A stretch of 64,000 nucleotides of DNA from Alphaproteobacteria bacterium (GCA_016735395.1 JAERRO010000001.1:2428-66427), one strand, 5' to 3'. Positions 10,826 to 63,433 are shown, numbered from the stretch's first letter. The notes: generated from the letters alone by a model not told the origin. Numbers and translations are program-made.

Positions 10826-12004
10826 CTATTTTTTATGGACAACAGTAGTTTTGCCGTCTATAAAATTCAGAACAAGTTCCTCCGTTTTACTAGCGGTTCC
10901 TACACTTTTTATAACAGTTCCATCACTATCTGTGGCAAAAATAAACCCTCGTTCCATAGTCTTTTTCAACGAATAGCTCTCTAACAGACTTTTTAAATTT
11001 TCAACCCTTATTTTTAGTGTCTCTAGTTTATTTATCTGAGTAGTCTGTATTTTCTGCATAGAGAAATCTAAAAAGAGTTGTCTTTCTCTGACTTTATCTA
11101 GAGGCGACTTTAGCTTCGCCATATCCATTATATTGTATAAATTCTTTACTTTATTATGTAAACTATGTCTAATATATCTCATTCGTTCATCTAACTTATT
11201 AGCTATAAATTCTTGTGTAAATTTAGTAGCTATCTCGGCGGCTCCAGTAGGTGTAGGAGCCCTCTTGTCCGCTACAAAATCTGCTAGAGTAGTATCGGTT
11301 TCATGCCCTATAGCACTGATAACCGGGCAAGGGCATTTATATATAGACCTGACGATTTCTTCATCGTTAAAACAAAACAGATCTTCAAAACTTCCTCCGC
11401 CTCGTGCTAGGATAACCGTGTCGATATCATTTCTACTGCTTATATGTTTAAAAGCGGACACAATAGTTTTTTTCGCATCTTGCCCTTGGACGACTACAGG
11501 GTACAGTTCTACTTTTGTCTTCCACCGTTCATCTAGTCTATGCAGAATATCTTGTAAAACGGATCCAGTTTTAGAGGTTATCACGGCTATAGTAGAAGGA
11601 TACAAAGGTATCTCTTTCTTTTTATCTAAATCGAATAGTCCTTCGTTTTTGAGTCTTAATTTTAACTCCTCTAACTTTTTTAATAGATCTCCCTCGCCAC
11701 TAGTTTCCATAGAGTTAACTATTAGTTGGTAAGAAGATTTTCCTTTCGAATAGCTAGAAACTTTGCCAGAAACGATGACCTCGTTGCCCTCCTTAAAGTC
11801 CACAGCAATATTAGTTCCTCTCCAGATTATCATAGAGATAACACTATCGGAGTCTTTCAAGGATAAATAAGTATGACCGGAGGAATGTCTATGAACATTA
11901 GAGATCTCACCTTTAATACGGACAGAGGTAAAAGTGACCTCAAGTGTATTCTTAATAACTGATGATATTTCCGAAACGGAAAAGATAGTATCTATTTCTT
12001 TCAT
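10826..12004 (-). CDS. xseA: Exodeoxyribonuclease VII large subunit
   Basis: N-terminal OB-fold region IFSVSEISSVIKNTLE...VRIKGEISN..GHTYLSLKD followed by the catalytic domain. 392 aa, lying 5 bp downstream of the PBP gene. Confidence 0.85.
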   Translation of the reverse strand: MKEIDTIFSVSEISSVIKNTLEVTFTSVRIKGEISNVHRHSSGHTYLSLKDSDSVISMIIWRGTNIAVDFKEGNEVIVSGKVSSYSKGKSSYQLIVNSMETSGEGDLLKKLEELKLRLKNEGLFDLDKKKEIPLYPSTIAVITSKTGSVLQDILHRLDERWKTKVELYPVVVQGQDAKKTIVSAFKHISSRNDIDTVILARGGGSFEDLFCFNDEEIVRSIYKCPCPVISAIGHETDTTLADFVADKRAPTPTGAAEIATKFTQEFIANKLDERMRYIRHSLHNKVKNLYNIMDMAKLKSPLDKVRERQLFLDFSMQKIQTTQINKLETLKIRVENLKSLLESYSLKKTMERGFIFATDSDGTVIKSVGTASKTEELVLNFIDGKTTVVHKK

Positions 12005-50754: not shown

Positions 50755-51615
50755 GTGTCGTCTATTTCTATCATATTTTCTAAAATAACTCGTGAATACT
50801 CTCAAAAAGGACACAATATGGCTTCTCCGTCAATAATAATTACTGCTTTTTCTATTATAAAGGGGGTCTTCGAAGTTGTCACTTCGTGGAAGCAGACGAA
50901 TTCTACTACTACAAATTCTATCATAAAAAGGACCGAGATAATCGAAAATGATGCTTCTATTACTCCTAAATTTTTTCTAGGATATATTAGCGAAAATTAC
51001 GAATCGGGGAAGGCGAAGACTAAAGCCATCAATCTTGTACGAGACAAAATTACAAGAAAAATTGTCTGTAATCCTATGGATCCCGGCGGATGTAGCTACG
51101 GGAGATGGCAAATTTCTACTAGGCGAAAGACTATGCTAAAATTTCTAAAATATTTGGAGAAACATAATATTAGGTTCTTCGACAAGTTAAATAAAGCAGG
51201 CGGAGAGACTGGTGCGACTAACGGGTGTAATAAATTTATTTCCGCCTGGAGATCTATCGCTACGGATCTGGAGTTTCAAAAGTTAGAATACTTCTTCATC
51301 AAAACATCGCACTATGATGTCCTGCTGTCTCCTATATCTAAAATTTGCCCCGACTATTTTGAAAGACATTATATATTAAAGAATGTACTTTGGTCTTGCG
51401 GAATACAACACGGAAAACGGGGAACTACGATGATCTATAACAGAGCCTTTAAACAGTTAGACGACGATCCTAGCGATCTAGAAATTATCGAGGCCATCTA
51501 TTTTGAAAGAAAGAAACTCGGTACATATTTTTCCGATTGTGTAGATCTGCATAAATCGCTTAAAAGAAGATTCAACGGTGAAGAAAGAAAAGTAATATAT
51601 TTTTTAAATAGTTAG
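50755..51615 (+). CDS. Hypothetical protein (probable start 50818, MASPSII...)
   Basis: AAAGGA RBS 7 nt before the 50818 ATG; hydrophobic N-terminus. A weak lysozyme/transglycosylase-like E-S-G...G.SYG.WQ pattern is not convincing. Confidence 0.4.
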   Translation: MSSISIIFSKITREYSQKGHNMASPSIIITAFSIIKGVFEVVTSWKQTNSTTTNSIIKRTEIIENDASITPKFFLGYISENYESGKAKTKAINLVRDKITRKIVCNPMDPGGCSYGRWQISTRRKTMLKFLKYLEKHNIRFFDKLNKAGGETGATNGCNKFISAWRSIATDLEFQKLEYFFIKTSHYDVLLSPISKICPDYFERHYILKNVLWSCGIQHGKRGTTMIYNRAFKQLDDDPSDLEIIEAIYFERKKLGTYFSDCVDLHKSLKRRFNGEERKVIYFLNS

Positions 51616-52220: not shown

Positions 52221-52832
52221 TTAGAAAATATCTTTTTCTGCAGTCGAGTCTAGTCTAGAAATAATCAAATTCCAGTCAATTAAATTATCTAAAGTAGATC
52301 GAACAAAATCTGCCCGCAAATTTTTGTAGTCTAAATAATAGGCATGTTCCCATACATCTATGACTAGTAAAACTACTCCGCCATACAATAGTGGGGTTTC
52401 GCCATTAAGTGTATTTTTTATTTCTAAAACATTTTCTTTATTGAGTACTAACCATACCCATCCGGAGCCAAAAAGTCCTAAAGAAGATTTTACGAACTCT
52501 TCTTTAAAGTTGTCTACGGAGCCGAAGTCTTTTACGATTAGAGATTTTAATTTACCGTCTTGAAAATCAACTGATTTCTTTAACTGTTTAAAAAACATTG
52601 TGTGATTGTAGTGTTGTCCTGCATTATTAAAAATGCCGACATTCTTATCGCTACTAGACTTCTTTATAACCTGCTCGATATCTAGCCCGACATAGTCCGT
52701 ACCTTCAATCAACTTATTTAGATTATTCACATATGTTTGGTGGTGTTTGCTATAGTGTATCTCTACAGTTTCCGCGGACATATACGGCGATAAATCGTCA
52801 TAGCCATAATCTAGTTTTGGTATCTCAAACAT
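52221..52832 (-). CDS. sodB: Fe/Mn superoxide dismutase
   Basis: FEIPKLDYGYDDLSPYMSAETVEIHYSKHHQTYVNNLN and DVWEHAYYLDY. Start taken at the Met with AAGGAG RBS (52832); the upstream in-frame ATG at 52856 is unlikely. Confidence 0.9.
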   Translation of the reverse strand: MFEIPKLDYGYDDLSPYMSAETVEIHYSKHHQTYVNNLNKLIEGTDYVGLDIEQVIKKSSSDKNVGIFNNAGQHYNHTMFFKQLKKSVDFQDGKLKSLIVKDFGSVDNFKEEFVKSSLGLFGSGWVWLVLNKENVLEIKNTLNGETPLLYGGVVLLVIDVWEHAYYLDYKNLRADFVRSTLDNLIDWNLIISRLDSTAEKDIF

Positions 52833-52901
52833 AATATCTCCTTTTCTACAAGTCATTTATTCTAAAATATAAAATTTTAGAAAAAATGTCAACCCACGAT
52901 T

Positions 52902-52984
52902 TATTCTAGAATTTCATACTTGATTGTTAAACTATAAGTTGATATAGTAGGAATAAATAAAACTACGATCGCAGGGAGGTAAAA
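52902..52984 (+). repeat. Copy 1 of a duplicated promoter/5'-UTR segment. It lies upstream of the 2TM-A gene and contains a TTGATT-17-TATAGT promoter at 52920..52948.
   Basis: 52908..52966 recurs at 54030..54088 with 2 mismatches. In copy 2 it is fused to a 29-bp piece of the sodB 5' coding region. Confidence 0.7.
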
Positions 52985-54001
52985 ATGGATAGAAAAAAGT
53001 TTGAAAATATAATATCACAAATTAATGATACATGTGATAAAATTCAAGAATTTGAAGATGTCACTAAACCTGAATTAATTAAAAAAAATAGATTTGGTGG
53101 AGGGTTTGGGGAGTATCTTTCAAGACATAGTTTTGATGTAAGCAATATTAAAAAGAAAATAAATAAACTATTAGATATAGACTTTAGTATCTTTTATGAT
53201 AATGCTGAGATATTAGCTATTCAAAACTTAATACAAATACTTTTAGATCACTGTAACAGATATAATAATGGTAATTCTGGTTATCTCTTTACAGAAGAAC
53301 ATTATAATAATACCTTTAAAAACAACAGATATGAAATAAATGAACTAATAGATAATTTACAGACAAAAAATTACGAGTTTGAAACCATTATCTCTATAGT
53401 TACTAATAATGAGATAAAAAAATTTTCTGATATAAACAAGATATACGAAAATATAGAGCAGAGTAAAACTGCATTAGAATCTATTAAAACAAATGAAAAT
53501 GCCTCGCAGATCGCTATGGAAAATATTAAGGTGGCTACGAATACCATTGGTGTAATAAAAAAAGCAGAGGGATTTGCAACTATAGCAGAAAAAAGTCATA
53601 AAAAGGCTCAAAAATATGAGTGGGTTATTTTTATATTTGCATTATTGTTGATGGGGCTAGTAGTACTAGCTTTTATAAAAATTGATAGCATATTTTTTTC
53701 TCGTTTAATCTTTTTAGTTCCTCTATTTACAGTTTCACTTATTTATCTCATTATATTAGAAAAAAGATACAGAATCAGGGCTTTTAAATACAAGGATCTG
53801 GAGGTTTCTATTTTATCTTTGTCGGCATATCTAGGAGATATTAGCGATAAACCTATGGAAGAATTGTCTGCTAAAGATACTTTTAAATTAAAGATGGCAG
53901 AATTTTATTATAAGCAGGTTTACGACGAGACTAAAATAAAGGAAAAAAATATTACGGAGCTTGTGACGAGTACCATAAAGAGTGCTAAAGGGACGACCTA
54001 G
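52985..54001 (+). CDS. Two-TM membrane protein A (soluble N-domain + 2 TM helices + C-terminal helix); candidate defense effector
   Basis: 338 aa. GGAGG RBS. TM helices WVIFIFALLLMGLVVLAFI and LIFLVPLFTVSLIYLIIL. Same architecture as 56034..57017. Confidence 0.5.
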   Translation: MDRKKFENIISQINDTCDKIQEFEDVTKPELIKKNRFGGGFGEYLSRHSFDVSNIKKKINKLLDIDFSIFYDNAEILAIQNLIQILLDHCNRYNNGNSGYLFTEEHYNNTFKNNRYEINELIDNLQTKNYEFETIISIVTNNEIKKFSDINKIYENIEQSKTALESIKTNENASQIAMENIKVATNTIGVIKKAEGFATIAEKSHKKAQKYEWVIFIFALLLMGLVVLAFIKIDSIFFSRLIFLVPLFTVSLIYLIILEKRYRIRAFKYKDLEVSILSLSAYLGDISDKPMEELSAKDTFKLKMAEFYYKQVYDETKIKEKNITELVTSTIKSAKGTT

Positions 54002-54103
54002 GCGATAAATCGTCATAGCCATAATCTAGAATTTCATACTTGATTGTTAAACTATAAGTTGATACAGTAGAAATAAATAAAACTAAATTTTGGGAGTTTC
54101 GTT
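54001..54103 (+). repeat. Copy 2 of the duplicated segment: a sodB 5' fragment (= 52787..52815) fused to the promoter region (= 52908..52966), lying upstream of mod. Promoter TTGATT-17-TACAGT at 54040..54068.
   Basis: The 29 bp ggcgataaatcgtcatagccataatctag is identical to sodB codons ~6-15. It is followed directly by aatttcatacttgattgttaaactataagttgata. Confidence 0.7.
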
Positions 54104-56032
54104 ATGGAAGATAATCTATTAAACAGTATTCTGGAGCTTTTCAAAAGTAAAAAACTAGAACAATATTACAACGGGGAAGGTCTTCTAACTAATAAGATAG
54201 AAGAGGATGCCCTTAAACTAGATTCTACATTACTAGAAGTTCTACTAGAAGACGAGGACACACAGAAGGCATTTTTTGCTACGGTAGGAGATATTAAAGT
54301 TTTCGATAAAATAAAATTTCAGTTATACATAAACAGTAAAGAATTTTTAAAAGATAGTTTTACTAAATACAAACAAAACATAGGATTAACAGACGAATAT
54401 GGTAAGGGGCTGAAACAAAATAATAATGTAGTTCTAAACTGGCCGTACAAAGATTGTATTTTGGAAGGCGGGCAAGATAAGGAAGACAAAAGCAGGAAAG
54501 AAGTTTTCTATAATGAAGTGTTGGCTCCCGAATATATAAATATACTTACAGACAAAAAGGCCTTTCATAATGCCGTTAGAGTTAAAGGCGAGGGCGACAA
54601 AGAAGAGCCTGTTACAGACTTTAATAGAAATGAGGACGGAACTATTACAGATAATTTAATGCTAAAGGGAAATAATCTACTAGTTCTACATAGCCTCAAA
54701 TCTCAATTTGCCGGCAAGATAAAACTAATTTATATTGATCCCCCTTATAATACTGGAAACGACGGCTTCAAATATAACGATAGATTTAATCATTCTAGCT
54801 GGCTTACCTTTATGAAAAATAGACTTGAAGTTGCTAGAGAACTTCTAGCCGACGACGGTGTTATCTTCGTTCAATGCGACGACAACGAACAGGCCTATCT
54901 AAAAGTCCTTATGGACGAAGTCTTTGGAAGGGCGAATTTTGTTATTAATTTAGTCTGGGAAAATAAGGAAGGCGGTGGGAAGTCCGATAGTATAACTTTT
55001 AGAAGAAAGCACGAATATATAATTACATATGCAAAAATAATAGATAACATAGAAATATATGGAAGAGATGTTGAGGACGTCGAAAGGTATAGATTATCTG
55101 ATATACATGAAGAGTATCGTGGAAAATATCAATTAATTAAACTAGATAGTGCGAGTCTAGGATATATAAAATCATTGGACTACTATATATTATCTCCAGA
55201 GAATACTCGTATATTTCCTAACAAAGATGACAACAAAATTAGTCGTTGGAGGTGGAATAAAAAGAAATTCGAATGGGGGGTAAAAAATGACTTTGTCGTA
55301 ATAAAAAAAGATAGAGACGATAATTGGGCTGTCTACACTAAACAATATCTAAATTGTGATAACAATGCAAATATTAAGAGAAGGACACTACAGCCAATAG
55401 GTGTAATTTCTAAATTTTCAAACACTCAATCTAATATACATATGAAATCTTTGTTCGGAACTGCTAAGTTTTCTTATTCAAAGCCAGAGCAATTAATTGA
55501 ATTTTATTTACAAATATCAACAAAGCCGGGGGATATAGTTCTAGATTTTTTCGCAGGGAGTGGGACTACGGCGGGGGTAGCTCACAAGATGGAGCGACAA
55601 TGGATCACTATAGAACAGATGGACTATATTCAGGACATCACAAAAGCTAGGCTGAAAAAAGTCGTAGATGGCGAACAGGGAGGTATCTCTAAAGCTATAG
55701 ACTGGAAAGGGGGCGGAGAATTCGTCTATATGGAAATGATAGAGAAAAATAATCGTTATTTTAATGAAATTATACAGTCGGAATCAGACGAAACTTTAAA
55801 AATACTATACAAACAAATTAAAGAAGAAACTTTCTTTAGATATGATATAGACCTAAAGGGACTAGATGCTCTAATGGACGACTCCATTTCCTTAAAACAT
55901 AAAAAGGAAGCCCTCACTCAATGCCTAGATAAAAATCACCTCTATTTGAACTACTCTAGCATCGACGACCGAAACTTTAATAAAGACGAAACCGTCTCTA
56001 ACCTCAATAAAAAATTCTACAAGGAGGTGTAG
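54104..56032 (+). CDS. mod: Type III restriction-modification methyltransferase (Mod), N6-adenine, beta class
   Basis: Motif IV IYIDPPYNTG precedes motif I DFFAGSGTTAGVA (permuted beta-class order); 642 aa. No simple-sequence repeat inside. Confidence 0.9.
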   Translation: MEDNLLNSILELFKSKKLEQYYNGEGLLTNKIEEDALKLDSTLLEVLLEDEDTQKAFFATVGDIKVFDKIKFQLYINSKEFLKDSFTKYKQNIGLTDEYGKGLKQNNNVVLNWPYKDCILEGGQDKEDKSRKEVFYNEVLAPEYINILTDKKAFHNAVRVKGEGDKEEPVTDFNRNEDGTITDNLMLKGNNLLVLHSLKSQFAGKIKLIYIDPPYNTGNDGFKYNDRFNHSSWLTFMKNRLEVARELLADDGVIFVQCDDNEQAYLKVLMDEVFGRANFVINLVWENKEGGGKSDSITFRRKHEYIITYAKIIDNIEIYGRDVEDVERYRLSDIHEEYRGKYQLIKLDSASLGYIKSLDYYILSPENTRIFPNKDDNKISRWRWNKKKFEWGVKNDFVVIKKDRDDNWAVYTKQYLNCDNNANIKRRTLQPIGVISKFSNTQSNIHMKSLFGTAKFSYSKPEQLIEFYLQISTKPGDIVLDFFAGSGTTAGVAHKMERQWITIEQMDYIQDITKARLKKVVDGEQGGISKAIDWKGGGEFVYMEMIEKNNRYFNEIIQSESDETLKILYKQIKEETFFRYDIDLKGLDALMDDSISLKHKKEALTQCLDKNHLYLNYSSIDDRNFNKDETVSNLNKKFYKEV

Positions 56033-56033
56033 G

Positions 56034-57017
56034 GTGGATAACAGAGAAAGACTTATAAAGACTATACAGAAAAAATTTTTTAGTAGGTTTGATATTTTTT
56101 ACGACCTAAACGACAGTGTATGGTTCGAGTTTGTAGATAAAGTTAGTGGTTATAGTCCTATATATGATTTTACGGATTACATTACACCGTATCTTATAAA
56201 GGGTATAGTAGATAAAATTGATACCACTACTCTCAAAGGCATAGTTAAACACATAGCTAACATTTGGGCTATAATAGACACATCTAGGTATAAAAACAAA
56301 GATTCATATTCAGGTAAAGATCAGATAATTTTTTATAAAGAAAATCTAAACGAACAAGACGACATAATAACAGAATTTAAAAAAATAAAAAGTTTATTGG
56401 AAAAATATAAATCTATTCTCGGAGAAAAGGATGAAGATCTGAAAGAAGAACATATGATAGAAACGAAATCATTCGCAGAATCATTCCTCGAGTCTAAAAA
56501 CAGTTATAATAGAAATATATGGATTATGTACATAGTACTACTTTTAACCTTAATAGCTATTGTGGGATTATATTTAATTGGGACTAAAACTTTCAACAAT
56601 TTAGATTTTATTAGTACAATAATATCACGGTTATTATTTTCTGCTCCGCTTATTTTCTTTGCATTTATTATAACGAAAAATCTATTTAACTTTCAATCTA
56701 TGTATGAAGCATACAACCATAAACAAAGGGTCGCAGAAGCTTTTTTAATTTTAGATCTAAAAATGGATAAAGAAAAAGAATGGCTTCTTAAAAAAACATT
56801 TCACGGGGGAAGCATCGAGCAAGGTCGCCTAGAACAAATTAACAAAGAGAAAGATCTATTATCTGGGACTCTTATGTCGGTAGTTCAAGAAAATCCTACA
56901 CATTTTTTAACAAAAGATAAATCTATGAAGAAATACCTAAAAGAACTAAAAGAAATTAAAGACCTGTTTATGGCTCCTAATATTATAGAAAGCAATCGAG
57001 TAGATAAAGGTAAATAA
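56034..57017 (+). CDS. Two-TM membrane protein B, embedded between mod and res; GTG start coupled to the mod stop
   Basis: GTG at 56034 lies 1 nt after the mod TAG, with AAGGAGG at 56021..56027. TM helices IWIMYIVLLLTLIAIVGLYLI and LLFSAPLIFFAFIIT. The stop overlaps the next ATG (TAATG). Confidence 0.55.
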   Translation: MDNRERLIKTIQKKFFSRFDIFYDLNDSVWFEFVDKVSGYSPIYDFTDYITPYLIKGIVDKIDTTTLKGIVKHIANIWAIIDTSRYKNKDSYSGKDQIIFYKENLNEQDDIITEFKKIKSLLEKYKSILGEKDEDLKEEHMIETKSFAESFLESKNSYNRNIWIMYIVLLLTLIAIVGLYLIGTKTFNNLDFISTIISRLLFSAPLIFFAFIITKNLFNFQSMYEAYNHKQRVAEAFLILDLKMDKEKEWLLKKTFHGGSIEQGRLEQINKEKDLLSGTLMSVVQENPTHFLTKDKSMKKYLKELKEIKDLFMAPNIIESNRVDKGK

Positions 57018-57030
57018 TGAATGATAATTT
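57001..57030 (+). repeat. 30-bp direct repeat, copy 1 (RBS + ATG + first 4 codons MNDN); copy 2 is at 57966..57995, the res start
   Basis: tagATAAAGGTAAATAATGAATGATAATTT vs taaATAAAGGTAAATAATGAATGATAATTT: 29/30 identical; the two flank the DUF3800 gene. Confidence 0.75.
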
Positions 57031-57856
57031 TATTATCTTTGTAGATGAATCAGGAGATCATAGCCTGTCTAAAATAAATCCTGAATTCCCTATATTCAAT
57101 CTAGTTTTTGTAGTATTCGAACAGAATCATTACTGTAATGTCGTTCTGCCAAAATTTAATCTACTTAAGTTAAAATACTTTAATAGTACTAATGTAATAT
57201 TTCACGAAAGAGAAATTAGAAAATCACTAAATAACTTTACAATACTAAAAAATTCCGTAGTAAGAAATAATTTTATAAATGATGTAGATACATTTTTAAA
57301 AAATATATCTTTCGAAATCATTACAATTAATTTTTTAAAAGAAAAAAATGCTAGGGAAGAAGTTAATATATACTCAAAATGTATGGAGGTAGCTCTTCCT
57401 ATTATTCAAAAATTTTTAGAAAAAAACTCTAGTTTAGAAAACAAAACTTTAATTACTTTTGAAGGGAGGGGGAAACAAGAAGATAGATCTCTAGAATTAG
57501 AATTCTTGAGGGAAACAAAGGACTATCAATATAACAACCTAAATATAGACATCATAACTAAACAGTCAAATTCTACCGGGCTACAGATCGCAGACTTAAT
57601 AGCTAGACCTATCGCAAATGAAATATTAAACTCGAAAAAAATAAACGATATTAAAGACTCTAATTGTGTAGGTTTCGGAATCGACAAAATAACAATAAAT
57701 GAAATGTTTCCTAAACCTTGCCACAATAGAGCTTTTGGATGTATAAAACCTAATATATATACTTTGCAAGTAATAATAAAACATGAAGTAATAAATAATA
57801 TGAAGGAAGATCTAAATTTTAATATAAAGCGAAAAAGGGCGGTTACACCACCCTAA
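57017..57856 (+). CDS. DUF3800-like protein
   Basis: N-terminal FIIFVDESGD motif and later GLQIADLIARPIA motif, as in the DUF3800 family; 279 aa. Start overlaps the stop of the 2TM-B gene. Confidence 0.45.
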   Translation: MNDNFIIFVDESGDHSLSKINPEFPIFNLVFVVFEQNHYCNVVLPKFNLLKLKYFNSTNVIFHEREIRKSLNNFTILKNSVVRNNFINDVDTFLKNISFEIITINFLKEKNAREEVNIYSKCMEVALPIIQKFLEKNSSLENKTLITFEGRGKQEDRSLELEFLRETKDYQYNNLNIDIITKQSNSTGLQIADLIARPIANEILNSKKINDIKDSNCVGFGIDKITINEMFPKPCHNRAFGCIKPNIYTLQVIIKHEVINNMKEDLNFNIKRKRAVTPP

Positions 57857-57981
57857 AGACGCCGATTGAGCATTCCCAATCCATTTATAATATATTATAT
57901 ACTATAAAAATTAAGAATGCAAGAAAAATAAAAAAAAGGGGACTTGACAAAGTCTAAAGATTAAATAAATAAAGGTAAATA

Positions 57982-60570
57982 ATGAATGATAATTTAGTAT
58001 ATTCTTTAAATGTCCTAGCAGGAGAAGATATTTTTAACCCTAGTGAAATTCCTGACTATATTACAAATAATGTCGCTCATAAACTGCGGGACTATCAAAC
58101 CGAAGCCCTAGCTAGATTTCGTTTCTATATCGACGATGATGGATACAAGAACAAAAAGAAGCCGATACATCTGCTGTTTCATATGGCTACGGGGTCAGGG
58201 AAGACTATCGTTATGGCTGGCTGTATTCTAGAACTATATAAAAAGGGGCATAGAAATTTCCTGTTCTTTGTTAACTCCGACAATATAATTGACAAAACTA
58301 AACATAATCTTCTATATCAAAATTCTAATAAATATCTGTTCAATAAAGATAAAATTATTATAGATAATAAGGCCGTTGCCGTAAAAGTCGTAGAAAATTT
58401 TAACGAAGCCGATGACGATTCTATCAATATATGTTTCAATACTATTCAAAAACTGCACGGAAACCTTATCAACACAGGCGAAAATGGAATTTCTACCGAA
58501 ACTTTTAAGGATACGAAAGTTGCTATAATATCCGACGAAGCCCATCACATCAATAGTATGACTAAAAAAGAATCCAAGGATGAACAAAACTGGGAGAACT
58601 CCGTTCTAGGTATTCTAAATGCGAATAATGACAATGTTATGCTAGAGTTTACCGCGACTATGGGTATGAAAAACGAGGCTATAGCAAAAAAATACAACGA
58701 TAAAGTTATATACGACTACACTTTCTTGAAATTTAATATAGACAAATATTCTAAAAATGTTTTTACTCTCGCCTCAACTTTCGATAATAACTATAAAATT
58801 TTACAGGCGATCGTTCTATCTCAATATAGACTAAAACTAGCAGTGCATCATAAGGTAAACCCGCTGGTTAAACCTGTCATTCTTGTGAAATCTAAATTTA
58901 TTAAAGATAGCACAAATGACTACAAAGAATTTTACGAGTTCTTGGAAAGACTAAAAGAAACAGATCTAGATAAAATTGAAAATGGCTCCGAGTCTAAAGA
59001 AATAAAATCTGCCTTTGAATTCTTCAAAAAAAATAAAATCACTAATGAAAATCTAGTCCTAGAGCTAAAGCAAGCCTTTAAAGTCGAAAATAGTGTTATC
59101 ACGGACTCAACAAAATCTACTCTTAATGCAAAGGTTCTACTCAATACACTAGAAGATGAAAAGAACAAAATTAGAATCATATTCGTCGTTAATCAACTTA
59201 ATGAAGGATGGGATGCTATCAATCTATATGACATCGTAAGGCTATATAATACTAAAGATAAAGGTAATGATGCTACTGTATCCGAGGCTCAACTAATAGG
59301 AAGGGGGGCTAGATACTGCCCCTTTACTACCAAAGACTCAGACGAAGATAAGTATAAACGAAAATTTGATGCCGATGCTAATAACGAACTTTCTATCCTT
59401 GAAGAATTCTACTTTCACTGCGATGATAATAGCAAATATATATCAGAGCTAAAGGCAGAACTAAAAACGCAAGGTATCATAGAAGAAGAAGTCCCCAACC
59501 TAGTTAGTATTGAGCTGAAAGAGAGTTTTAAAGAATCTGACTTCTATGAAAAAGGTTGTATTTTTCTAAATAAACAAGAACCTACTGATAAAGCAAAAAA
59601 CTTTAAAGAAGTCAAAAAACTTATAAAAAGTCAAGCATTTAAATACAATTCTACTATAGAAGATGGTAGGTCTAATAGTAAAAATAATCTATTAAAGGGT
59701 GATATTCTAAATGAAAACTCCAGTACAAAAAGAACAGAAACTTTAGATAAAGATGATTTTAGTAAACAGATTATTCAAACTGCTTTTGATAGAAATCCAT
59801 ACTTTAATTTTGATAAAATGAAAAAATACTGTGGGGGAAAAGTTGAGTCTATGAAGGACTTTATAGATCAAGTTATGGAGAATGTAAAAGTTGAGGTTAG
59901 ATATCAAGGAAACAAAGATACATTATTAACCCCGCGAGTGAAACTAGATATATTTTCTAATGTCCTAGGGGAAATCTCGAAAATTATGGAGAAGAATAAC
60001 ATAGAAAAGAGGGGGACGAGGGAATTCTCACATAAGAAAATATTAGAAATATTTATAGATAAAAAATTCAAGAGTAGTGGTACTGAAAAAGATATGAGGG
60101 GGCATAAGTGGTTCGCCTATGACAAAAATTACGGTACGAGTTTAGAAAATGATTTTATAAAATATATTATAGAAAAAAAAGAAGAGATAGAAGACAAATA
60201 TGCAGAGTTTTATCTATTAAGAAGTGAACGGTTTTTTAGGCTGTACGACTTCGAACAAGGTCGAGGATTTGAGCCTGACTTTGTTATGTTTTTTAAGAAA
60301 AATGGAAGTGAAGAATTTTCTAACCTACAAGTGTTTATAGAGCCTAAAGGTGGTCATCTATTAGAACATGATAAATGGAAATCTAAATTTTTAGAGAGCA
60401 TAAATAAAAATGTAGAATTTGGTGACGATCTATTTAATGATTCTAAAGATTTTAAAATAATAGGTCTCCCATTTTATGTTGACAATAAAGAACTACTGAT
60501 CGACGAAAAGAAGTTTACAGAACGAAAATTTAAAGAGGCTTTTAAAGAACAAATATTTAACAACGACTAA
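57982..60570 (+). CDS. res: Type III restriction enzyme Res subunit (SF2 helicase + C-terminal PD-(D/E)xK endonuclease)
   Basis: LRDYQTEAL; motif I MATGSGKT; motif II IISDEAHH; C-terminal nuclease FEPDFVMFF...VFIEPKG; 862 aa. Confidence 0.9.
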   Translation: MNDNLVYSLNVLAGEDIFNPSEIPDYITNNVAHKLRDYQTEALARFRFYIDDDGYKNKKKPIHLLFHMATGSGKTIVMAGCILELYKKGHRNFLFFVNSDNIIDKTKHNLLYQNSNKYLFNKDKIIIDNKAVAVKVVENFNEADDDSINICFNTIQKLHGNLINTGENGISTETFKDTKVAIISDEAHHINSMTKKESKDEQNWENSVLGILNANNDNVMLEFTATMGMKNEAIAKKYNDKVIYDYTFLKFNIDKYSKNVFTLASTFDNNYKILQAIVLSQYRLKLAVHHKVNPLVKPVILVKSKFIKDSTNDYKEFYEFLERLKETDLDKIENGSESKEIKSAFEFFKKNKITNENLVLELKQAFKVENSVITDSTKSTLNAKVLLNTLEDEKNKIRIIFVVNQLNEGWDAINLYDIVRLYNTKDKGNDATVSEAQLIGRGARYCPFTTKDSDEDKYKRKFDADANNELSILEEFYFHCDDNSKYISELKAELKTQGIIEEEVPNLVSIELKESFKESDFYEKGCIFLNKQEPTDKAKNFKEVKKLIKSQAFKYNSTIEDGRSNSKNNLLKGDILNENSSTKRTETLDKDDFSKQIIQTAFDRNPYFNFDKMKKYCGGKVESMKDFIDQVMENVKVEVRYQGNKDTLLTPRVKLDIFSNVLGEISKIMEKNNIEKRGTREFSHKKILEIFIDKKFKSSGTEKDMRGHKWFAYDKNYGTSLENDFIKYIIEKKEEIEDKYAEFYLLRSERFFRLYDFEQGRGFEPDFVMFFKKNGSEEFSNLQVFIEPKGGHLLEHDKWKSKFLESINKNVEFGDDLFNDSKDFKIIGLPFYVDNKELLIDEKKFTERKFKEAFKEQIFNND

Positions 60571-60653: not shown

Positions 60654-61715
60654 ATGACAAATGTGAAAAATAACAGTTTAAATCTTTTTGATTATGCGAC
60701 AAGTGAACTTTCTCAAGATGCTTTTTTGTGCTGGCTACTAGCCCATCATCCTATATGTCAAAACGAAGATAGTGAAATAAAAGATAAAGATATTTCTCAA
60801 TGTGCAGAAAATTTATTAAATGAACTACTAGGAAAACATTCAACAGAACTAGGAAAAATAACAGAACTAGAAATAAAAAGGCAATATAAAAAGATTGATA
60901 TATTAGTGATAATCAATAAAAAATATGGACTAATCATAGAAGATAAAACCGATACATCTGAACACGGAAACCAATTGGGTAAATACTTTAAGGTTGTAGA
61001 GGAAAAGGGATTAATCCCTCTAGGAATATATTTTAAAACTGGTGATGAACTAAAAAGAGATGAAATAAAAAGAGATAAAATAAAAAGAGATGAAATAAAA
61101 AGAGATGAAATAAAAAATAAGAGTGATGAAGATATAGAATATACATATAAAACATTTTATAGAGATGAGTTATTAGAGGTATTAAAAAAACACAAAACAA
61201 AAAATGATATCTTTACTTCATTCTATAATAGGCTAGACAAATTTGAAGAAGATTATAAATCATACGAAAACAACAAAGTTGCCGATTGGTCTAGTAGAGC
61301 ATGGTCAGGATTTTTTCATAATAAACTATATAAAAATGATAGACAAAATTTTGATAAATTCTGGTATGGATATGTTCCAAATCGAAGTGGCGGTTTTCTA
61401 TGCTTCGCATGGGAGTTTAGATACATAGACAAAATAAAAGTATATTTTCAATTTGAAATAAGAAAAGTAGGTAATACGATGAATCCTATTTTAGTAGTTA
61501 AAACATCTTGTGAAAATAAACCGCTACCAGATGTAGCCCTCAATAAAATAGATGAATATATAGGTAAAGACTTGTGGAAGAAATTTAAGAGGCGGAGAAG
61601 TGATGGAAAAACATCTTCTAGGCTAATCTATATTTTAGAAGATCTTAATAATATGGAATATGGCGAGCTTATAGAATCTATTGAGAAAGCAACAAAATCT
61701 TTTGATTTAAAATAG
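60654..61715 (+). CDS. Hypothetical PD-(D/E)xK nuclease-like protein with an internal KRDEI tandem peptide repeat
   Basis: N-terminal SELSQDAFLCWLLAHHP and KKIDILVIINKKYGLIIEDKTDTSEH (D...E-D-K arrangement). Central LKRDEIKRDKIKRDEIKRDEIK encoded by 4 x 15-bp repeats. Confidence 0.4.
   Translation: MTNVKNNSLNLFDYATSELSQDAFLCWLLAHHPICQNEDSEIKDKDISQCAENLLNELLGKHSTELGKITELEIKRQYKKIDILVIINKKYGLIIEDKTDTSEHGNQLGKYFKVVEEKGLIPLGIYFKTGDELKRDEIKRDKIKRDEIKRDEIKNKSDEDIEYTYKTFYRDELLEVLKKHKTKNDIFTSFYNRLDKFEEDYKSYENNKVADWSSRAWSGFFHNKLYKNDRQNFDKFWYGYVPNRSGGFLCFAWEFRYIDKIKVYFQFEIRKVGNTMNPILVVKTSCENKPLPDVALNKIDEYIGKDLWKKFKRRRSDGKTSSRLIYILEDLNNMEYGELIESIEKATKSFDLK
61053..61112 (+). repeat. 4 tandem copies of a 15-bp unit AAAAGAGATGAAATA (one copy with G->A), in-frame within 60654..61715
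   Basis: Read directly: aaaagagatgaaata / aaaagagataaaata / aaaagagatgaaata / aaaagagatgaaata. Confidence 0.85.
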
Positions 61716-61773: not shown

Positions 61774-62724
61774 TTAAGATTGAGAAGGATATTCACATAA
61801 TATAAAAAATCCATTTCTTTCAACTGGTTCTCCCAAATTTTTGCCTTCTCTATATTTTTCTGCAAAAGGTTTATGGGAACATGAAATAGTTATCTTATCG
61901 TTATCGATCTCGAACATAAAATTTCCTCCTTGATTGTTCGTAAACATATCTACTCTAGAGGAGTCTCTATATTTATTGTAATTGATACAAGCGGAGGGGG
62001 CGTTTCCTATCATCGTTATTCCAGGGTTTACTATCTCTAGAAATGAAAAGCCTCTACCAGAATCCCTCCCATGATGAGGAGCTATAAATAAATCTATATT
62101 TGAAATATCATTCTTATGTTTTTTAATTAAATGTTCCCAAGTCTTATCATCACTATCACCACAAAATAATATCTTAAAATTACCTGTCTTATATAAGATA
62201 ACTCCAGAACAATCATTCCAGTCTCCAATTATATCAGCCTTTTGTATTAAATCTTTGGTTGGAGACAAAATCTTTAATCCGTCTTCTATTATAAAGCTTT
62301 TTTTAACGTCATCTTGTAAAGAGTGAGCTTTTTTTAATAGTTCTTTATAACAGTCCCAATCTTTTTTGTCTGTGTCAGAAATTTTTTCATCTGTTTTCTT
62401 TGTTTTATATCCCCAAAAATTATCAATCCCGATACATTCTTTTAATGCCTTTATTCCTTTTAAATGGTCCATATCTGGATGAGTTAAAAAAAATCTAAAT
62501 ATGGCTTCGTCTTTATAATACTTTTTTAAAAAATCGATAGGATTTATAGGATGTTTTTTCTCTCCGAAGTTTCCTCTCGTAGATGCTGTGACTGTTTCCG
62601 ATAACTGGATAGAATCTTTTAAAGACTTCCCGTTGTTAATATCAATCATCGTTAGTCTACCAGAATAATGTTGTATTATTGAGCTATCTCCATTACCTAC
62701 ATTTAGAAAATATATTTTTGACAT
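61774..62724 (-). CDS. Metallo-beta-lactamase-fold hydrolase (ComEC C-terminal/Rec2-like family)
   Basis: LNVGNGDSSII, HxHxDH-type LTHPDMDHLKG, FCGD, APHHGR; 316 aa. 11 bp downstream of the membrane-protein gene. Confidence 0.55.
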   Translation of the reverse strand: MSKIYFLNVGNGDSSIIQHYSGRLTMIDINNGKSLKDSIQLSETVTASTRGNFGEKKHPINPIDFLKKYYKDEAIFRFFLTHPDMDHLKGIKALKECIGIDNFWGYKTKKTDEKISDTDKKDWDCYKELLKKAHSLQDDVKKSFIIEDGLKILSPTKDLIQKADIIGDWNDCSGVILYKTGNFKILFCGDSDDKTWEHLIKKHKNDISNIDLFIAPHHGRDSGRGFSFLEIVNPGITMIGNAPSACINYNKYRDSSRVDMFTNNQGGNFMFEIDNDKITISCSHKPFAEKYREGKNLGEPVERNGFFILCEYPSQS

Positions 62725-62735
62725 TTTTTATCCTT

Positions 62736-63218
62736 TTAGTTTATATCTATTATTTTTACTATTTTAATAGCATGTTTTCTTATAGAAAAAGTAAACAAGA
62801 TTATAAATGCTAAGAATATCAGTGACATTGAAAACATTCCTTTAAACATTGTTACTAAAAACAGAATGATAAACAGAGTATTTATATTTCTTGAAAAACC
62901 ATATTCCCTTGAGAGAAGTTCTAATCTTGGATTTGTATTTAAAGCTTTGTTAAATAGAGTATGATCTCTCCACGGAATTATTTTAATAGATTTGAAACAA
63001 TTTTCTAGAACTAGAGAACCTAATCTACTAATAACAGTACCGATAAAATAAGAGAAAGAGAGATAAATGATATTTAAATTTACTCCAGAAAATTGGTCTA
63101 ATCGGTTCAAATCTACTTTTATATTTATAAGACTAAGACCTATTATAAATAATATTCCTATGAAAATTTTATTTACTACTTCATAAAACGGTATTCCTGT
63201 TTTCATATAGTCCTCCAC
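62736..63218 (-). CDS. Hypothetical polytopic membrane protein (3-4 TM), co-oriented with the MBL hydrolase
   Basis: 160 aa. Hydrophobic segments IFIGILFIIGLSLI, IIYLSFSYFIGTVI, LFIILFLVTMF and LIFLAFIILFTF. Confidence 0.4.
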   Translation of the reverse strand: MEDYMKTGIPFYEVVNKIFIGILFIIGLSLINIKVDLNRLDQFSGVNLNIIYLSFSYFIGTVISRLGSLVLENCFKSIKIIPWRDHTLFNKALNTNPRLELLSREYGFSRNINTLFIILFLVTMFKGMFSMSLIFLAFIILFTFSIRKHAIKIVKIIDIN

Positions 63219-63242: not shown

Positions 63243-63317
63243 TATAGTGTCGTTACTATGATTGGTGGGGGCAGGGGGATTCGAACCCTCGACCTGCTGA
63301 TTAAGAGTCAGTTGCTC
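63243..63317 (-). tRNA. tRNA-Lys (anticodon CUU)
   Basis: Reverse complement GGGGGCATAGCTCAGTGGTAGAGCAACTGACTCTTAATCAGCAGGTCGAGGGTTCGAATCCCCCTGCCCCCACCA; perfect acceptor stem, loop CTCTTAA with U33/A37, CCA encoded; 75 nt. Confidence 0.8.
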
Positions 63318-63433
63318 TACCACTGAGCTATGCCCCCATAATTTACTTACCTATATATAGACCGTTTATAAATAATTTTCAATACTAGACGACTACTTAT
63401 TTTGATCTTCTATTTCAATAGATCTATTCTACT

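What the first reader, a model, noticed from the sequence alone, without database searches (positions are those of the whole stretch)
52985..57017. Two architecturally matched 2TM proteins bracket mod
The 52985..54001 and 56034..57017 products have the same layout: an N/K-rich soluble N-domain of ~180 aa, then two closely spaced TM helices, then a C-terminal amphipathic ~80 aa. Residue identity is low. Two-TM C-terminal modules of this kind are typical of the pore-forming effectors found in CBASS-like and other abortive-infection systems (SLATT-like). Two copies around mod could represent divergent paralogs, or an effector plus a sensor or immunity partner.
Basis: inference. Interest (0 to 1): 0.6.

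Follow-up and report, generated by a model that had tools for sequence, protein, structure and literature searches.

The report
Restriction-linked two-helix membrane protein pair
Two very distantly related membrane-hairpin proteins from an undescribed family sit beside and inside a type III restriction-modification operon; relatives of one of them are repeatedly found embedded in restriction operons of unrelated bacteria, so they are probably a new restriction-linked membrane accessory whose function is untested.

Summary
ORF A (52985-54001) and ORF B (56034-57017) are the only proteins in the window with a central, closely spaced two-helix membrane hairpin, and they bracket a type III mod gene.

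They are not recent paralogs. Direct comparison is not significant. Each belongs to a small uncharacterised family, and the two family profiles match at 89-91% hhalign probability, against at most 17% in controls. B matches its own family at 96.5%.

No SLATT, CBASS, Pfam, PADLOC, NCBIfam or PDB assignment was found, and the island has no cyclase.

The locus is a roughly 10.4 kb defence island between sodB and tRNA-Lys. B and a DUF3800 gene are cargo inserted between mod and res. In 16 of the roughly 69 related operons where both genes could be placed, that slot carries other cargo: Abi_2, Bro-N, PD-(D/E)XK nucleases, Fic and AAA_13.

A-family genes lie next to or inside type I, IIG, II or III restriction genes in 6 of 10 informative contexts. 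A's N-domain is hypervariable between strains that are 99.9% identical in flanking core DNA.

Best reading, by inference: restriction-coupled membrane effectors similar to PrrC or Ronin. Rival readings are a membrane tether or a DNA-entry exclusion factor. It is a new variant of a known kind.

The parts
52786..52965 (.). Repeat R, copy 1: the 5' end of sodB (a 29-mer at 52786-52814, antisense to sodB codons) plus the sodB-upstream promoter-like region (a 64-mer at 52902-52965)
   Evidence: the repeat finder families D4 and D2; sequence read; promoter-like hexamers on both strands
52985..54001 (+). ORF A, 338 aa: a hypervariable helical N-domain followed by a conserved two-helix membrane module. 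It is a member of the A-family
53621..53755 (+). Membrane hairpin of A (TM1 residues 213-231, 4-residue loop, TM2 residues 236-257). Basic residues on both flanks predict that both termini are cytoplasmic
   Evidence: hydropathy; flanking sequences EKSHKKAQKYE and EKRYRIRAFKYKD read directly
53756..53923 (+). A-family signature directly after TM2: E-K-R-x-R-x-R-x-F-K-x-K-D-L ... (P)Y-L-x-D ... K-D-x-x-K-L-E-M-A-K-x-F-F
   Evidence: alignments A3 and A9
54001..54085 (.). Repeat R, copy 2. The 29-mer is identical to copy 1 and the 64-mer is 95% identical; about 87 nt between them are deleted. It lies directly upstream of mod
   Evidence: This stretch, together with the 3' half of A and the first ~15 nt of the next gene, is ~100% identical in L001 and L002
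54104..56032 (+). Type III restriction-modification methyltransferase (mod)
   Evidence: Pfam N6_N4_Mtase 5.6e-47 and TypeIII_RM_meth 3.2e-16; PADLOC MTase_III 1.4e-170
56034..57017 (+). ORF B, 327 aa, translationally coupled to mod. It is a divergent member of a plasmid- and transposon-borne two-helix membrane family (the B-family)
56520..56675 (+). Membrane hairpin of B (TM1 residues 163-183, loop 184-192, TM2 residues 193-214, containing the APLIF motif)
56676..56747 (+). B-family motif after TM2: N-L-x-x-F ... Y-x-H-K-x-x-x-A-x-x-F. In B it reads KNLFNFQSMYEAYNHKQRVAEAF
57017..57856 (+). DUF3800 protein, the second cargo gene between mod and res
   Evidence: Pfam DUF3800 1.8e-12
57004..57030 (.). 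Exact 27-nt direct repeat, copy 1 (end of B, ribosome-binding site, and first 14 nt of the DUF3800 gene)
57969..57995 (.). Exact 27-nt direct repeat, copy 2 (ribosome-binding site and first 14 nt of res). It marks DUF3800 as an insertion into an older B/res junction
57982..60570 (+). Type III restriction enzyme (res)
   Evidence: Pfam ResIII 4.7e-31; PADLOC REase_III 7.4e-124
60654..61715 (+). PD-(D/E)XK-like protein resembling PADLOC candidate PDC-S26; it contains 15-nt tandem repeats
61774..63218 (-). PDC-M48B (metallo-beta-lactamase fold, 61774-62724) and PDC-M48A (membrane protein, 62736-63218): a candidate two-gene defence system
   Evidence: PADLOC 2.6e-32 and 2.9e-16; weak NCBIfam 6A-MBL match
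63263..63337 (-). tRNA-Lys(CTT), at the right edge of the island

Best explanation
A and B are two distant branches of one undescribed superfamily. Its members are inner-membrane proteins with a cytoplasmic helical N-domain, a two-helix hairpin, and a conserved cytoplasmic helix directly after the second helix. They act as accessory genes of restriction-modification systems.

Shown by the analysis:
- The locus is a defence island between sodB and tRNA-Lys.
- B, and later DUF3800, were inserted into the mod-res junction of a type III operon. This slot carries other defence or abortive-infection cargo in many related operons.
- B is translationally coupled to mod and, before the DUF3800 insertion, to res.
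- A sits at the island edge under a duplicated promoter-like region directly upstream of mod.
- A's relatives are repeatedly embedded in type I, II, IIG and III restriction loci.
- A's N-domain evolves as a conflict gene does.

Inferred mechanism:
- The variable N-domain contacts or monitors the methyltransferase/restriction complex, or a phage product.
- When restriction is blocked or overwhelmed, the hairpin module oligomerises and compromises the inner membrane, stopping the infected cell.
- This is a back-up ('guardian') layer like PrrC with EcoPrrI or RonA with HsdMS.
For: Type III RM identity.

Island content (PDC-S26-like, PDC-M48A/B) and bounding tRNA-Lys.

The mod-res slot is a cargo site:
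- Both genes could be placed in about 69 of the 80 mod relatives fetched. In about 53 of them res directly follows mod.
- In 16 there is a 0.6-2.3 kb insert. The inserts carry Peptidase_M78 plus a small membrane protein, Bro-N, Abi_2, PDDEXK_2, PDDEXK_3, a weak SduA_C match, AAA_13, RhuM+Fic or DUF4917.
- The closest relative, at 60% identity, has no insert.

Coupling of B: Shine-Dalgarno sequence and GTG start 1 nt after the mod stop. A 27-nt repeat shows that B's 3' end once overlapped the res start.

A-family next to restriction genes in 6 of 10 informative contexts:
- the window (type III mod)
- L002 (type IIG)
- L090/L091 (type I hsdM-BroN-X-hsdS with overlapping stop and start codons)
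- L095-97 (X followed 4 nt later by type III res, 1e-128)
- L092-94 (X-PDC-M11B-type II methyltransferase beside McrBC)
- Vibrio plasmid L102 (hsdM-hsdS-X-DUF4268-hsdR; 77.8 bits to the family HMM)

Conflict-gene behaviour of A:
- Strain L001 is 99.87% identical over 9.1 kb of core DNA, yet its A allele is 64% identical in protein and mosaic.
- dN/dS is 0.9-1.6 in the N-domain and about 0.6 in the membrane module. All three alleles are intact.

Homology of the two families:
- A9 versus A8: 91.1%, E=1e-6, 106 columns.
- With B left out: 88.7%.
- B versus the plasmid family: 96.5%, E=9.4e-10; BLASTP 4e-11 and 5e-10; tblastn 6e-4 against 7.3 Gb.
- Controls: reversed alignments 1.4-1.9%; 40 block shuffles at most 17.3%; unrelated membrane proteins 0.2-1.9%.

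Precedents:
- PrrC embedded in EcoPrrI (PMC12707154).
- RonA, a membrane effector caged by HsdMS and released by anti-restriction proteins (bioRxiv 10.1101/2023.04.06.535777).
- Defence genes embedded in a type I RM system (PMC11411939).
Against: - No functional data exist. Toxicity, pore formation, binding to Mod or Res, and anti-phage activity are all inferred.
- The AlphaFold2 models are poor (A pLDDT 60, B pLDDT 43). The fold search gave nothing with E<=0.001.
- Four of ten A-family contexts have no adjacent restriction gene.
- The other B-family members are solitary genes on plasmids or on a Tn7-like element, not in restriction operons.
- A is not translationally coupled to mod. It keeps the same 3' flank while the downstream restriction system differs (type III here, type IIG in L002). 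It therefore cannot depend on one specific enzyme.
- The A-B homology rests on profiles with few sequences and covers a region rich in membrane helices. A9 versus B alone gives only 21%.
- The context census is small. It comes from the ten clusters that one search returned.
Confidence: 0.45

Rival explanations
1. Membrane tether or scaffold. The proteins are not toxic. They hold the Mod/Res complex at the inner membrane so that incoming phage or plasmid DNA is restricted at its point of entry.
For: - B is translationally coupled to mod and, ancestrally, to res. This fits a stoichiometric partner better than a rarely used toxin.
- A-family genes sit inside type I operons with overlapping stop and start codons.
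- Both termini are predicted to be cytoplasmic, leaving large helical domains free to bind partners.
- The membrane-bound nuclease SNIPE cleaves phage DNA during injection (PMC13190303).
Against: - Most related type III operons work without such a gene.
- The same slot carries classical abortive-infection or toxin cargo such as Abi_2, Fic and AAA_13.
- The family also occurs away from restriction genes.
- No interaction data exist.
Confidence: 0.2
2. Stand-alone exclusion or mobile-element function. The proteins are inner-membrane factors that block DNA entry, like superinfection or entry exclusion, or that serve plasmid or transposon biology. They are found with restriction genes only because both collect in accessory islands.
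For: - B-family members are solitary genes on conjugative plasmids and in a Tn7-like element.
- One A-family member carries a faint precomputed match to a Plasmid_mob_TrbF model.
- Several A-family contexts lack restriction genes.
- A has its own promoter-like region.
Against: - Six of ten contexts lie immediately next to or inside restriction operons, several with overlapping reading frames. That is hard to explain by loose co-location.
- No relatives were found in phage collections.
Confidence: 0.17
3. SLATT-like effector of a CBASS-type nucleotide-signalling system.
For: Only the general architecture fits: a two-helix hairpin followed by a conserved cytoplasmic helix.
Against: - No SLATT_1-5, DUF4231 or any other Pfam model, and no PADLOC CBASS effector model, matches A, B or 18 family members even at E<=1.
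- None of the island genes scanned matches a cyclase, SMODS, SLOG or SAVED model.
- No such neighbour appears in the related loci.
Confidence: 0.04
4. A and B work together as an effector-immunity or sensor-effector pair.
For: They share a module and flank the same gene. Both are also present in assembly GCA_022702835.1.
Against: - They were acquired separately. A is bounded by repeat R and B lies inside the operon.
- Each family occurs without the other in every other locus examined.
- The A alleles vary, while B is identical in the three assemblies that carry it.
Confidence: 0.05

Closest known systems
Ronin (RonA with HsdM/HsdS), 'decoy immunity' (bioRxiv 10.1101/2023.04.06.535777)
   Same: A membrane protein gene is tightly linked to restriction-modification methyltransferase genes. 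The proposed logic is that the methyltransferase complex holds the membrane effector inactive, and the effector is released when phage anti-restriction proteins attack the complex.
   Different: RonA is 61 aa with one predicted helix and is linked to type I HsdMS lacking HsdR. A and B are about 330 aa, with a large cytoplasmic N-domain and a two-helix hairpin, and are linked here to a complete type III system. No sequence comparison with RonA was made, and no functional data exist for A or B.
PrrC/EcoPrrI and RloC (anticodon nucleases embedded in type I restriction loci; reviewed in PMC12707154)
   Same: An accessory abortive-infection gene is embedded in a restriction operon and acts as a second line when restriction is inhibited. 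An AAA_13-type ATPase gene occupies the same mod-res slot in one relative (L051).
   Different: PrrC and RloC are soluble ATPase-nuclease proteins that cut tRNA. A and B have no nuclease or ATPase domain and are membrane proteins.
SLATT two-helix membrane effector domains (CBASS and related systems)
   Same: A two-helix hairpin followed by a cytoplasmic helical region, found in conflict-system contexts.
   Different: No match to any SLATT model, no nucleotide cyclase or sensor partner, and a different conserved motif after the second helix.
TgvAB embedded in the Vibrio cholerae VPI-2 type I restriction system (PMC11411939)
   Same: An independent defence module inserted between the genes of a restriction operon.
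   Different: TgvAB is a GmrSD-like type IV nuclease system. It is not a membrane protein, and the host operon is type I.
SNIPE membrane-bound nuclease (PMC13190303)
   Same: It shows that anchoring a DNA-cleaving defence at the inner membrane can target injected phage DNA. This is the model for the tether rival.
   Different: SNIPE is a single protein carrying its own nuclease domain. A and B carry none and would have to recruit Mod/Res.
DUF2207_C (Pfam PF20990)
   Same: Two A-family members (P0005, P0008) give sub-threshold matches (24.6 and 22.9 bits, cut-off 33). The matches cover the helix before TM1, the hairpin, and the helix after TM2.
   Different: The scores are below the curated cut-off. 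DUF2207 proteins have a large extracytoplasmic domain and no known function.

Membership tests
SLATT (SMODS and SLOG-associating 2TM effector) domains | Significant match to a SLATT profile (Pfam SLATT_1-5, SLATT_fungal, DUF4231) | tested here: not met
   No such hit at E<=1 for A, B, 11 A-family members or 5 B-family members
SLATT (SMODS and SLOG-associating 2TM effector) domains | Two membrane helices followed by a conserved cytoplasmic helix | tested here: met
   Hydropathy and family alignments. This shows architecture only, not homology
SLATT (SMODS and SLOG-associating 2TM effector) domains | Genomic association with a nucleotide cyclase (SMODS/CD-NTase), SLOG or another signalling partner | tested here: not met
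   None of the island genes scanned and none of the related loci carries one
Restriction-linked abortive 'guardian' effectors (PrrC, RloC, RonA type) | Gene embedded in or tightly linked to restriction-modification genes in several unrelated genomes | tested here: met
   A-family: 6 of 10 informative contexts, covering types I, II, IIG and III. B: inside mod-res. The sample is small
Restriction-linked abortive 'guardian' effectors (PrrC, RloC, RonA type) | Effector is toxic alone and silenced by the methyltransferase/restriction complex | not testable with these tools
   Needs expression experiments
Restriction-linked abortive 'guardian' effectors (PrrC, RloC, RonA type) | Activation by phage anti-restriction proteins or by loss of restriction | not testable with these tools
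   Needs experiments with Ocr, ArdA or phage challenge
Restriction-linked abortive 'guardian' effectors (PrrC, RloC, RonA type) | Sequence homology to PrrC/RloC (AAA_13-type ATPase with nuclease) or to RonA | tested here: not met
   No AAA_13 or other Pfam hit. RonA itself was not compared because its sequence was not held
Type III restriction-modification system (the host operon) | Mod with N6_N4 methyltransferase and type III methylation-subunit domains; Res with a ResIII helicase-nuclease | tested here: met
   (MTase_III 1.4e-170; REase_III 7.4e-124)
A-family (defined here) | Helical N-domain, K-K-A before TM1, two membrane helices, then E-K-R-x-R-x-R-x-F-K-x-K-D-L ... P-Y-L-x-D ... K-L-E-x-A-K-x-F-F | tested here: met
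   A matches all features. HMM scores are 77.8 bits for the Vibrio member and 44.7 bits for the Parageobacillus member. B scores only 7.9 bits and is not a member
B-family (defined here) | A-G-x-A-x-x-F before TM1, TM2 with A-P-[LF]-I-W, then N-L-x-x-F ... E-Y-x-H-K-E-x-L-A-K-S-F ... E-A-F-K-x-N-P | tested here: met
   B keeps FAESF, APLIF, YEAYNHKQRVAEAF and VQENP. hhalign 96.5%, E=9.4e-10. BLASTP 4e-11 and 5e-10
Common superfamily of A-family and B-family | Profile-profile similarity above composition and hydrophobicity controls, collinear over the helix before TM1, TM1, TM2 and the helix after TM2 | tested here: met
   91.1% and 88.7% without B. Controls gave at most 17.3% and 0.2-1.9%. The profiles are shallow, so this is probable, not certain

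The most novel reading that the evidence does not exclude
A and B define a new superfamily of restriction-coupled inner-membrane proteins that works across type I, II/IIG and III systems. Either it is a general 'guardian' that collapses the membrane when the methyltransferase/restriction complex is attacked by anti-restriction proteins, or it physically couples restriction enzymes to the DNA entry site. The fast-evolving N-domain would be the interface that phages try to evade. This locus would be unusual in carrying two such proteins around one mod gene.
Probability: 0.3. Interest if true: 0.75.

Novelty: new variant of a known kind. Interest (0 to 1): 0.55.

Why it matters
Accessory genes embedded in restriction operons (PrrC, RonA, TgvAB) show how bacteria layer their immunity and how they detect phage anti-restriction proteins. 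Only a handful of families are known, and almost all examples involve type I systems.

This locus offers three things:
- It points to an unannotated membrane-protein superfamily that recurs inside type I, IIG and III restriction loci.
- It identifies the mod-res junction of one type III clade as a recurrent cargo slot.
- It provides a natural comparison: near-identical strains that differ in the A allele and in the downstream restriction cassette.

The proteins are small and easy to test in E. coli. If the guardian or tether model holds, it extends decoy or guardian immunity to type III systems and adds a new membrane effector class.

Tried and rejected
Direct comparison of A and B:
- BLASTP, a family HMM and single-sequence hhalign were not significant. 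The homology claim therefore rests only on family profiles.

Family and structure libraries:
- Pfam, PADLOC, NCBIfam and PHROGs scans of A and B gave nothing.
- PDB sequence searches gave nothing.

Searches for more relatives:
- The word-indexed search of 5.8 billion proteins found only B itself, and only two close A alleles. A profile search added one cluster.
- The exhaustive phmmer run on a concatenated A+B query found eight distant A relatives and none for B.
- B's relatives appeared only in tblastn against plasmids.

Structure prediction and fold search:
- The AlphaFold2 models were too poor to use.
- Foldseek against PDB gave only generic long-helix matches.
- The AFDB library was not available.

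Collection scans that found nothing:
- Repeat R in metagenome contigs.
- A-family patterns in metagenome and viral contigs.
- tblastn against phage genomes.
- A and P0009 against plasmids.
- The junction DNA against plasmids.

Other checks:
- Rfam found no DUF3800-associated RNA motif.
- A literature search for the assemblies found nothing.
- The idea that A is a conserved core gene flanking a hotspot was rejected. Its allele differs strongly between strains whose flanking core DNA is 99.87% identical.
- The idea that the neighbour of the Acinetobacter B-family gene is an ATPase like the one in Campylobacter was rejected.

Full report
**1. What is at the coordinates**

The region downstream of sodB (52221-52856, minus strand) reads as follows:
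- ORF A (52985-54001, 338 aa)
- mod (54104-56032)
- ORF B (56034-57017, 327 aa)
- a DUF3800 gene (57017-57856)
- res (57982-60570)
- a PD-(D/E)XK-like gene (60654-61715)
- two minus-strand genes (61774-62724 and 62736-63218)
- tRNA-Lys(CTT) at 63263-63337

Mod and Res are a standard type III pair. Mod matches Pfam N6_N4_Mtase and TypeIII_RM_meth and PADLOC MTase_III at 1.4e-170. Res matches ResIII and PADLOC REase_III at 7.4e-124.

The remaining genes match PADLOC defence candidates PDC-S26, PDC-M48B and PDC-M48A. The finding therefore lies in a defence island of about 10.4 kb between sodB and a tRNA gene. The host is an AT-rich alphaproteobacterial metagenome-assembled genome (names; composition).

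**2. The observation**

Hydropathy places two adjacent membrane helices at residues 213-231 and 236-257 of A, and at 163-183 and 193-214 of B. Basic residues on both sides of A's hairpin predict that both termini are cytoplasmic.

Among 41 ORFs of at least 150 aa in the window, only A and B have such a central hairpin. B is a real gene. It is a 327-codon ORF in DNA of 28% G+C, it has an AAGGAGG site 6 nt before its GTG start, it begins one base after the mod stop, and it ends overlapping the next start codon.

The N/K richness is shared by every island protein and is compositional.

**3. Are A and B related?**

Directly, the answer is no:
- BLASTP aligns only the hairpin (E=0.011).
- A shuffle that keeps the helices in place gives P of about 0.06. 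The N-domains and tails score below shuffled sequence.
- The A-family HMM gives B 7.9 bits.

Each protein does, however, belong to a small family.

*The A-family:*
- A has two close alleles, P0003 and P0004.
- An exhaustive phmmer search of 1.84 billion cluster representatives found eight distant relatives.
- tblastn against plasmids added two more members.
- All share a K-K-A motif before TM1, the hairpin, and a strongly conserved stretch after TM2: E-K-R-x-R-x-R-x-F-K-x-K-D-L ... P-Y-L-x-D ... K-L-E-x-A-K-x-F-F.

*The B-family:*
- B looked like an orphan in the large protein searches.
- tblastn against plasmids then found a family of about 400-aa proteins in Acinetobacter and enterobacterial, Campylobacter and Vibrio plasmids.
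- B aligns with them over the helix before TM1, both membrane helices, the motif Y-x-H-K-x-x-x-A-x-x-F, and a distal x-N-P motif (BLASTP 4e-11 and 5e-10; alignment; hhalign 96.5%, E=9.4e-10).

*Family against family:* the hhalign probability was 28-47% with the first A-family profile and rose to about 90% once two plasmid members were added to it.

| Comparison | hhalign probability |
|---|---|
| A-family (11 seqs) vs B alone | 28% |
| A-family (11 seqs) vs B-family (3 seqs) | 47% |
| A-family (11 seqs) vs B-family (5 seqs) | 40% |
| A-family (14 seqs) vs B-family (5 seqs) | 91.1% (E=1e-6, 106 collinear columns) |
| A-family (14 seqs) vs B-family without B | 88.7% |
| Control: reversed alignments | 1.4-1.9% |
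| Control: 40 local column shuffles that keep the hydrophobic blocks | at most 17.3% |
| Control: unrelated membrane proteins | 0.2-1.9% |

I conclude that A and B are probably remote homologs in their C-terminal membrane module. They are two branches of one superfamily, not a recent duplication. The profiles are shallow, so this is probable rather than proven.

**4. No known family**

- Pfam, PADLOC, NCBIfam and PHROGs give nothing significant for A, B or their relatives. That includes every SLATT model and the CBASS effector models.
- The only lead is a sub-threshold DUF2207_C match for two A-family members.
- PDB sequence searches were negative.
- AlphaFold2 gave all-helical but low-confidence models, with pLDDT 60 for A and 43 for B.
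- Foldseek found no match with E<=0.001.
- The island has no cyclase or other signalling gene.

The SLATT/CBASS reading is therefore not supported, although the general architecture is similar.

**5. B is cargo in a recurrent slot**

I fetched 80 loci encoding relatives of this mod gene, and both genes could be placed in about 69 of them. In about 53 of those, res follows mod directly. This includes the closest relative, at 60% identity. In 16 there is an insert of 0.6-2.3 kb between the two genes.

The inserts encode the following:
- Peptidase_M78 with a small membrane protein
- Bro-N proteins
- Abi_2
- PDDEXK_2 and PDDEXK_3 nucleases
- a weak Shedu-like match
- an AAA_13 ATPase
- RhuM+Fic
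- DUF4917

This is the known pattern of defence or abortive-infection genes embedded in restriction operons: PrrC in EcoPrrI and TgvAB in a Vibrio type I system.

In the window, an exact 27-nt repeat flanks the DUF3800 gene (57004-57030 and 57969-57995). It contains the ribosome-binding site and the first 14 nt of both DUF3800 and res. DUF3800 was therefore inserted later, into a junction where B's stop codon overlapped the res start. The older arrangement was mod-B-res, with all three genes translationally coupled.

**6. A is a fast-evolving, restriction-linked gene**

*Allele variation:*
- Contig L001, from a sister strain, is 99.87% identical to the window over 9.1 kb up to sodB.
- Its A allele is only 64% identical in protein and is mosaic relative to a third allele in L002.
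- dN/dS is 0.9-1.6 in the N-domain and about 0.6 in the membrane module. All three alleles keep intact reading frames.

*Conserved flank and swapped cassette:*
- The 3' half of A, the 102-nt spacer and the first ~15 nt of the next gene are essentially identical in all three genomes.
- Beyond that point the downstream gene is type III mod in the window and a type IIG enzyme in L002. L001 breaks there.

*Flanking repeats:* A itself is flanked by direct repeats that copy the sodB 5' end and the promoter-like region in front of mod.

*Neighbourhoods of A-family genes elsewhere:*

| Locus | Arrangement (X = A-family gene) |
|---|---|
| L090/L091 | type I hsdM - BroN - X - hsdS, overlapping stops and starts |
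| Vibrio plasmid L102 | type I hsdM - hsdS - X - DUF4268 - hsdR |
| L095-97 | X, then type III res 4 nt later. This is the position B holds in the window |
| L092-94 | X - PDC-M11B - type II methyltransferase, next to McrBC |

Counting the window and L002, 6 of 10 informative contexts place an A-family gene directly beside or inside restriction genes. The other four do not. B-family genes elsewhere are solitary on plasmids or in a Tn7-like element. One follows an AAA ATPase gene, with a DUF4435 gene further upstream.

**7. How it most likely works**

*Shown:*
- Two remotely homologous hairpin membrane proteins.
- A defence island.
- B coupled inside a type III operon, in a slot that carries abortive-infection cargo elsewhere.
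- Recurrent restriction linkage of the A-family.
- A conserved membrane module with a diversifying N-domain.

*Inferred:* the cytoplasmic N-domain monitors or binds the restriction complex or a phage factor, and the hairpin module damages the membrane when restriction fails. This resembles PrrC and especially RonA, a membrane effector caged by HsdMS and released by Ocr or ArdA. I give this model 0.45.

*Rivals:*
- A non-toxic tether that places restriction at the DNA entry site (0.2). SNIPE is the precedent.
- A stand-alone exclusion or mobile-element function (0.17).
- An A-B effector-immunity pair (0.05).
- A SLATT/CBASS effector (0.04).

**8. Novelty and verdict**

Embedding accessory effectors in restriction operons is a known theme, and two-helix membrane effectors are a known kind. 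New here are:
- the protein superfamily, which has no annotation in any library searched;
- its spread across type I, II/IIG and III loci;
- the type III mod-res cargo slot;
- the presence of two members around one mod gene.

I rate it a new variant of a known kind, with interest 0.55. The main weaknesses are the small number of family members, the shallow profiles, the poor structural models, and the complete absence of functional data.

Noticed in passing
window 52786-52965 and 54001-54085; L002 44-79 and 1158-1193: ORF A is flanked by direct repeats. A 29-mer taken from inside the sodB 5' coding end and a 64-mer from the promoter-like intergenic region are both copied in front of mod, with about 87 nt deleted between them in the second copy. 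The same flanking repeats occur in L002.
   Followed up: partly
window 57004-57030 and 57969-57995; L067 7816 and 8745; L012 7810 and 8322: Cargo genes in the mod-res slot are flanked by duplications of the junction: 27 nt here, 30 nt in L067 and 16 nt in L012. In the window the repeat includes the ribosome-binding site and the first five codons, so DUF3800 and Res both begin with MNDN. This suggests an insertion mechanism, or selection, that captures the resident gene's translation start.
   Followed up: partly
window 54104-54124 versus L002 1233-1253; L001 end (11096-11105): A type IIG restriction gene in L002 starts with the same ~15 nt (ATGGAAGATAATCTA, MEDNL) as the type III mod of the window, then diverges completely. 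Contig L001 ends 10 nt into this gene. This looks like a cassette-swap junction just inside the reading frame.
   Followed up: partly
L001 9156-9848: The sister strain, 99.87% identical in core DNA, carries an extra class I SAM methyltransferase gene between sodB and the A allele. The window lacks it.
   Followed up: no
window 61044-61118: Four to five tandem copies of a 15-nt unit (GATGAAATAAAAAGA, encoding KRDEI repeats) lie inside the PD-(D/E)XK / PDC-S26-like gene. This is possible length variation.
   Followed up: no
window 61774-63218 (minus strand): A candidate two-gene defence system: PDC-M48B (metallo-beta-lactamase fold, with a weak match to the NCBIfam '6A-MBL' anti-phage enzyme) and PDC-M48A (membrane protein). 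It sits next to tRNA-Lys(CTT) at 63263-63337.
   Followed up: partly
window 57017-57981: The DUF3800 gene has no detectable DUF3800-associated structured RNA motif (the motifs described in PMC5737381) in or around it, according to Rfam. A terminator-like hairpin lies on the opposite strand at 57836-57854.
   Followed up: partly
window 50755-51615: A protein with a T6SS_VgrG3-like C-terminal domain (4e-27) lies just upstream of the island, among core genes. It is conserved in the sister strain L001.
   Followed up: no
L090 1295-2128; L011, L028, L044, L067, L069 mod-res inserts: Bro-N / PDC-S13-type genes recur as restriction-embedded cargo. One lies beside an A-family gene in a type I operon, and others occupy the type III mod-res slot. 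Different restriction types appear to share a common pool of embedded cargo.
   Followed up: partly
L089 and L002 (both from GCA_022702835.1): The same assembly holds an identical mod-B-DUF3800 fragment and, on another short contig, a divergent A allele followed by a type IIG gene. Either two strains are mixed, or both restriction systems lie in one genome.
   Followed up: no
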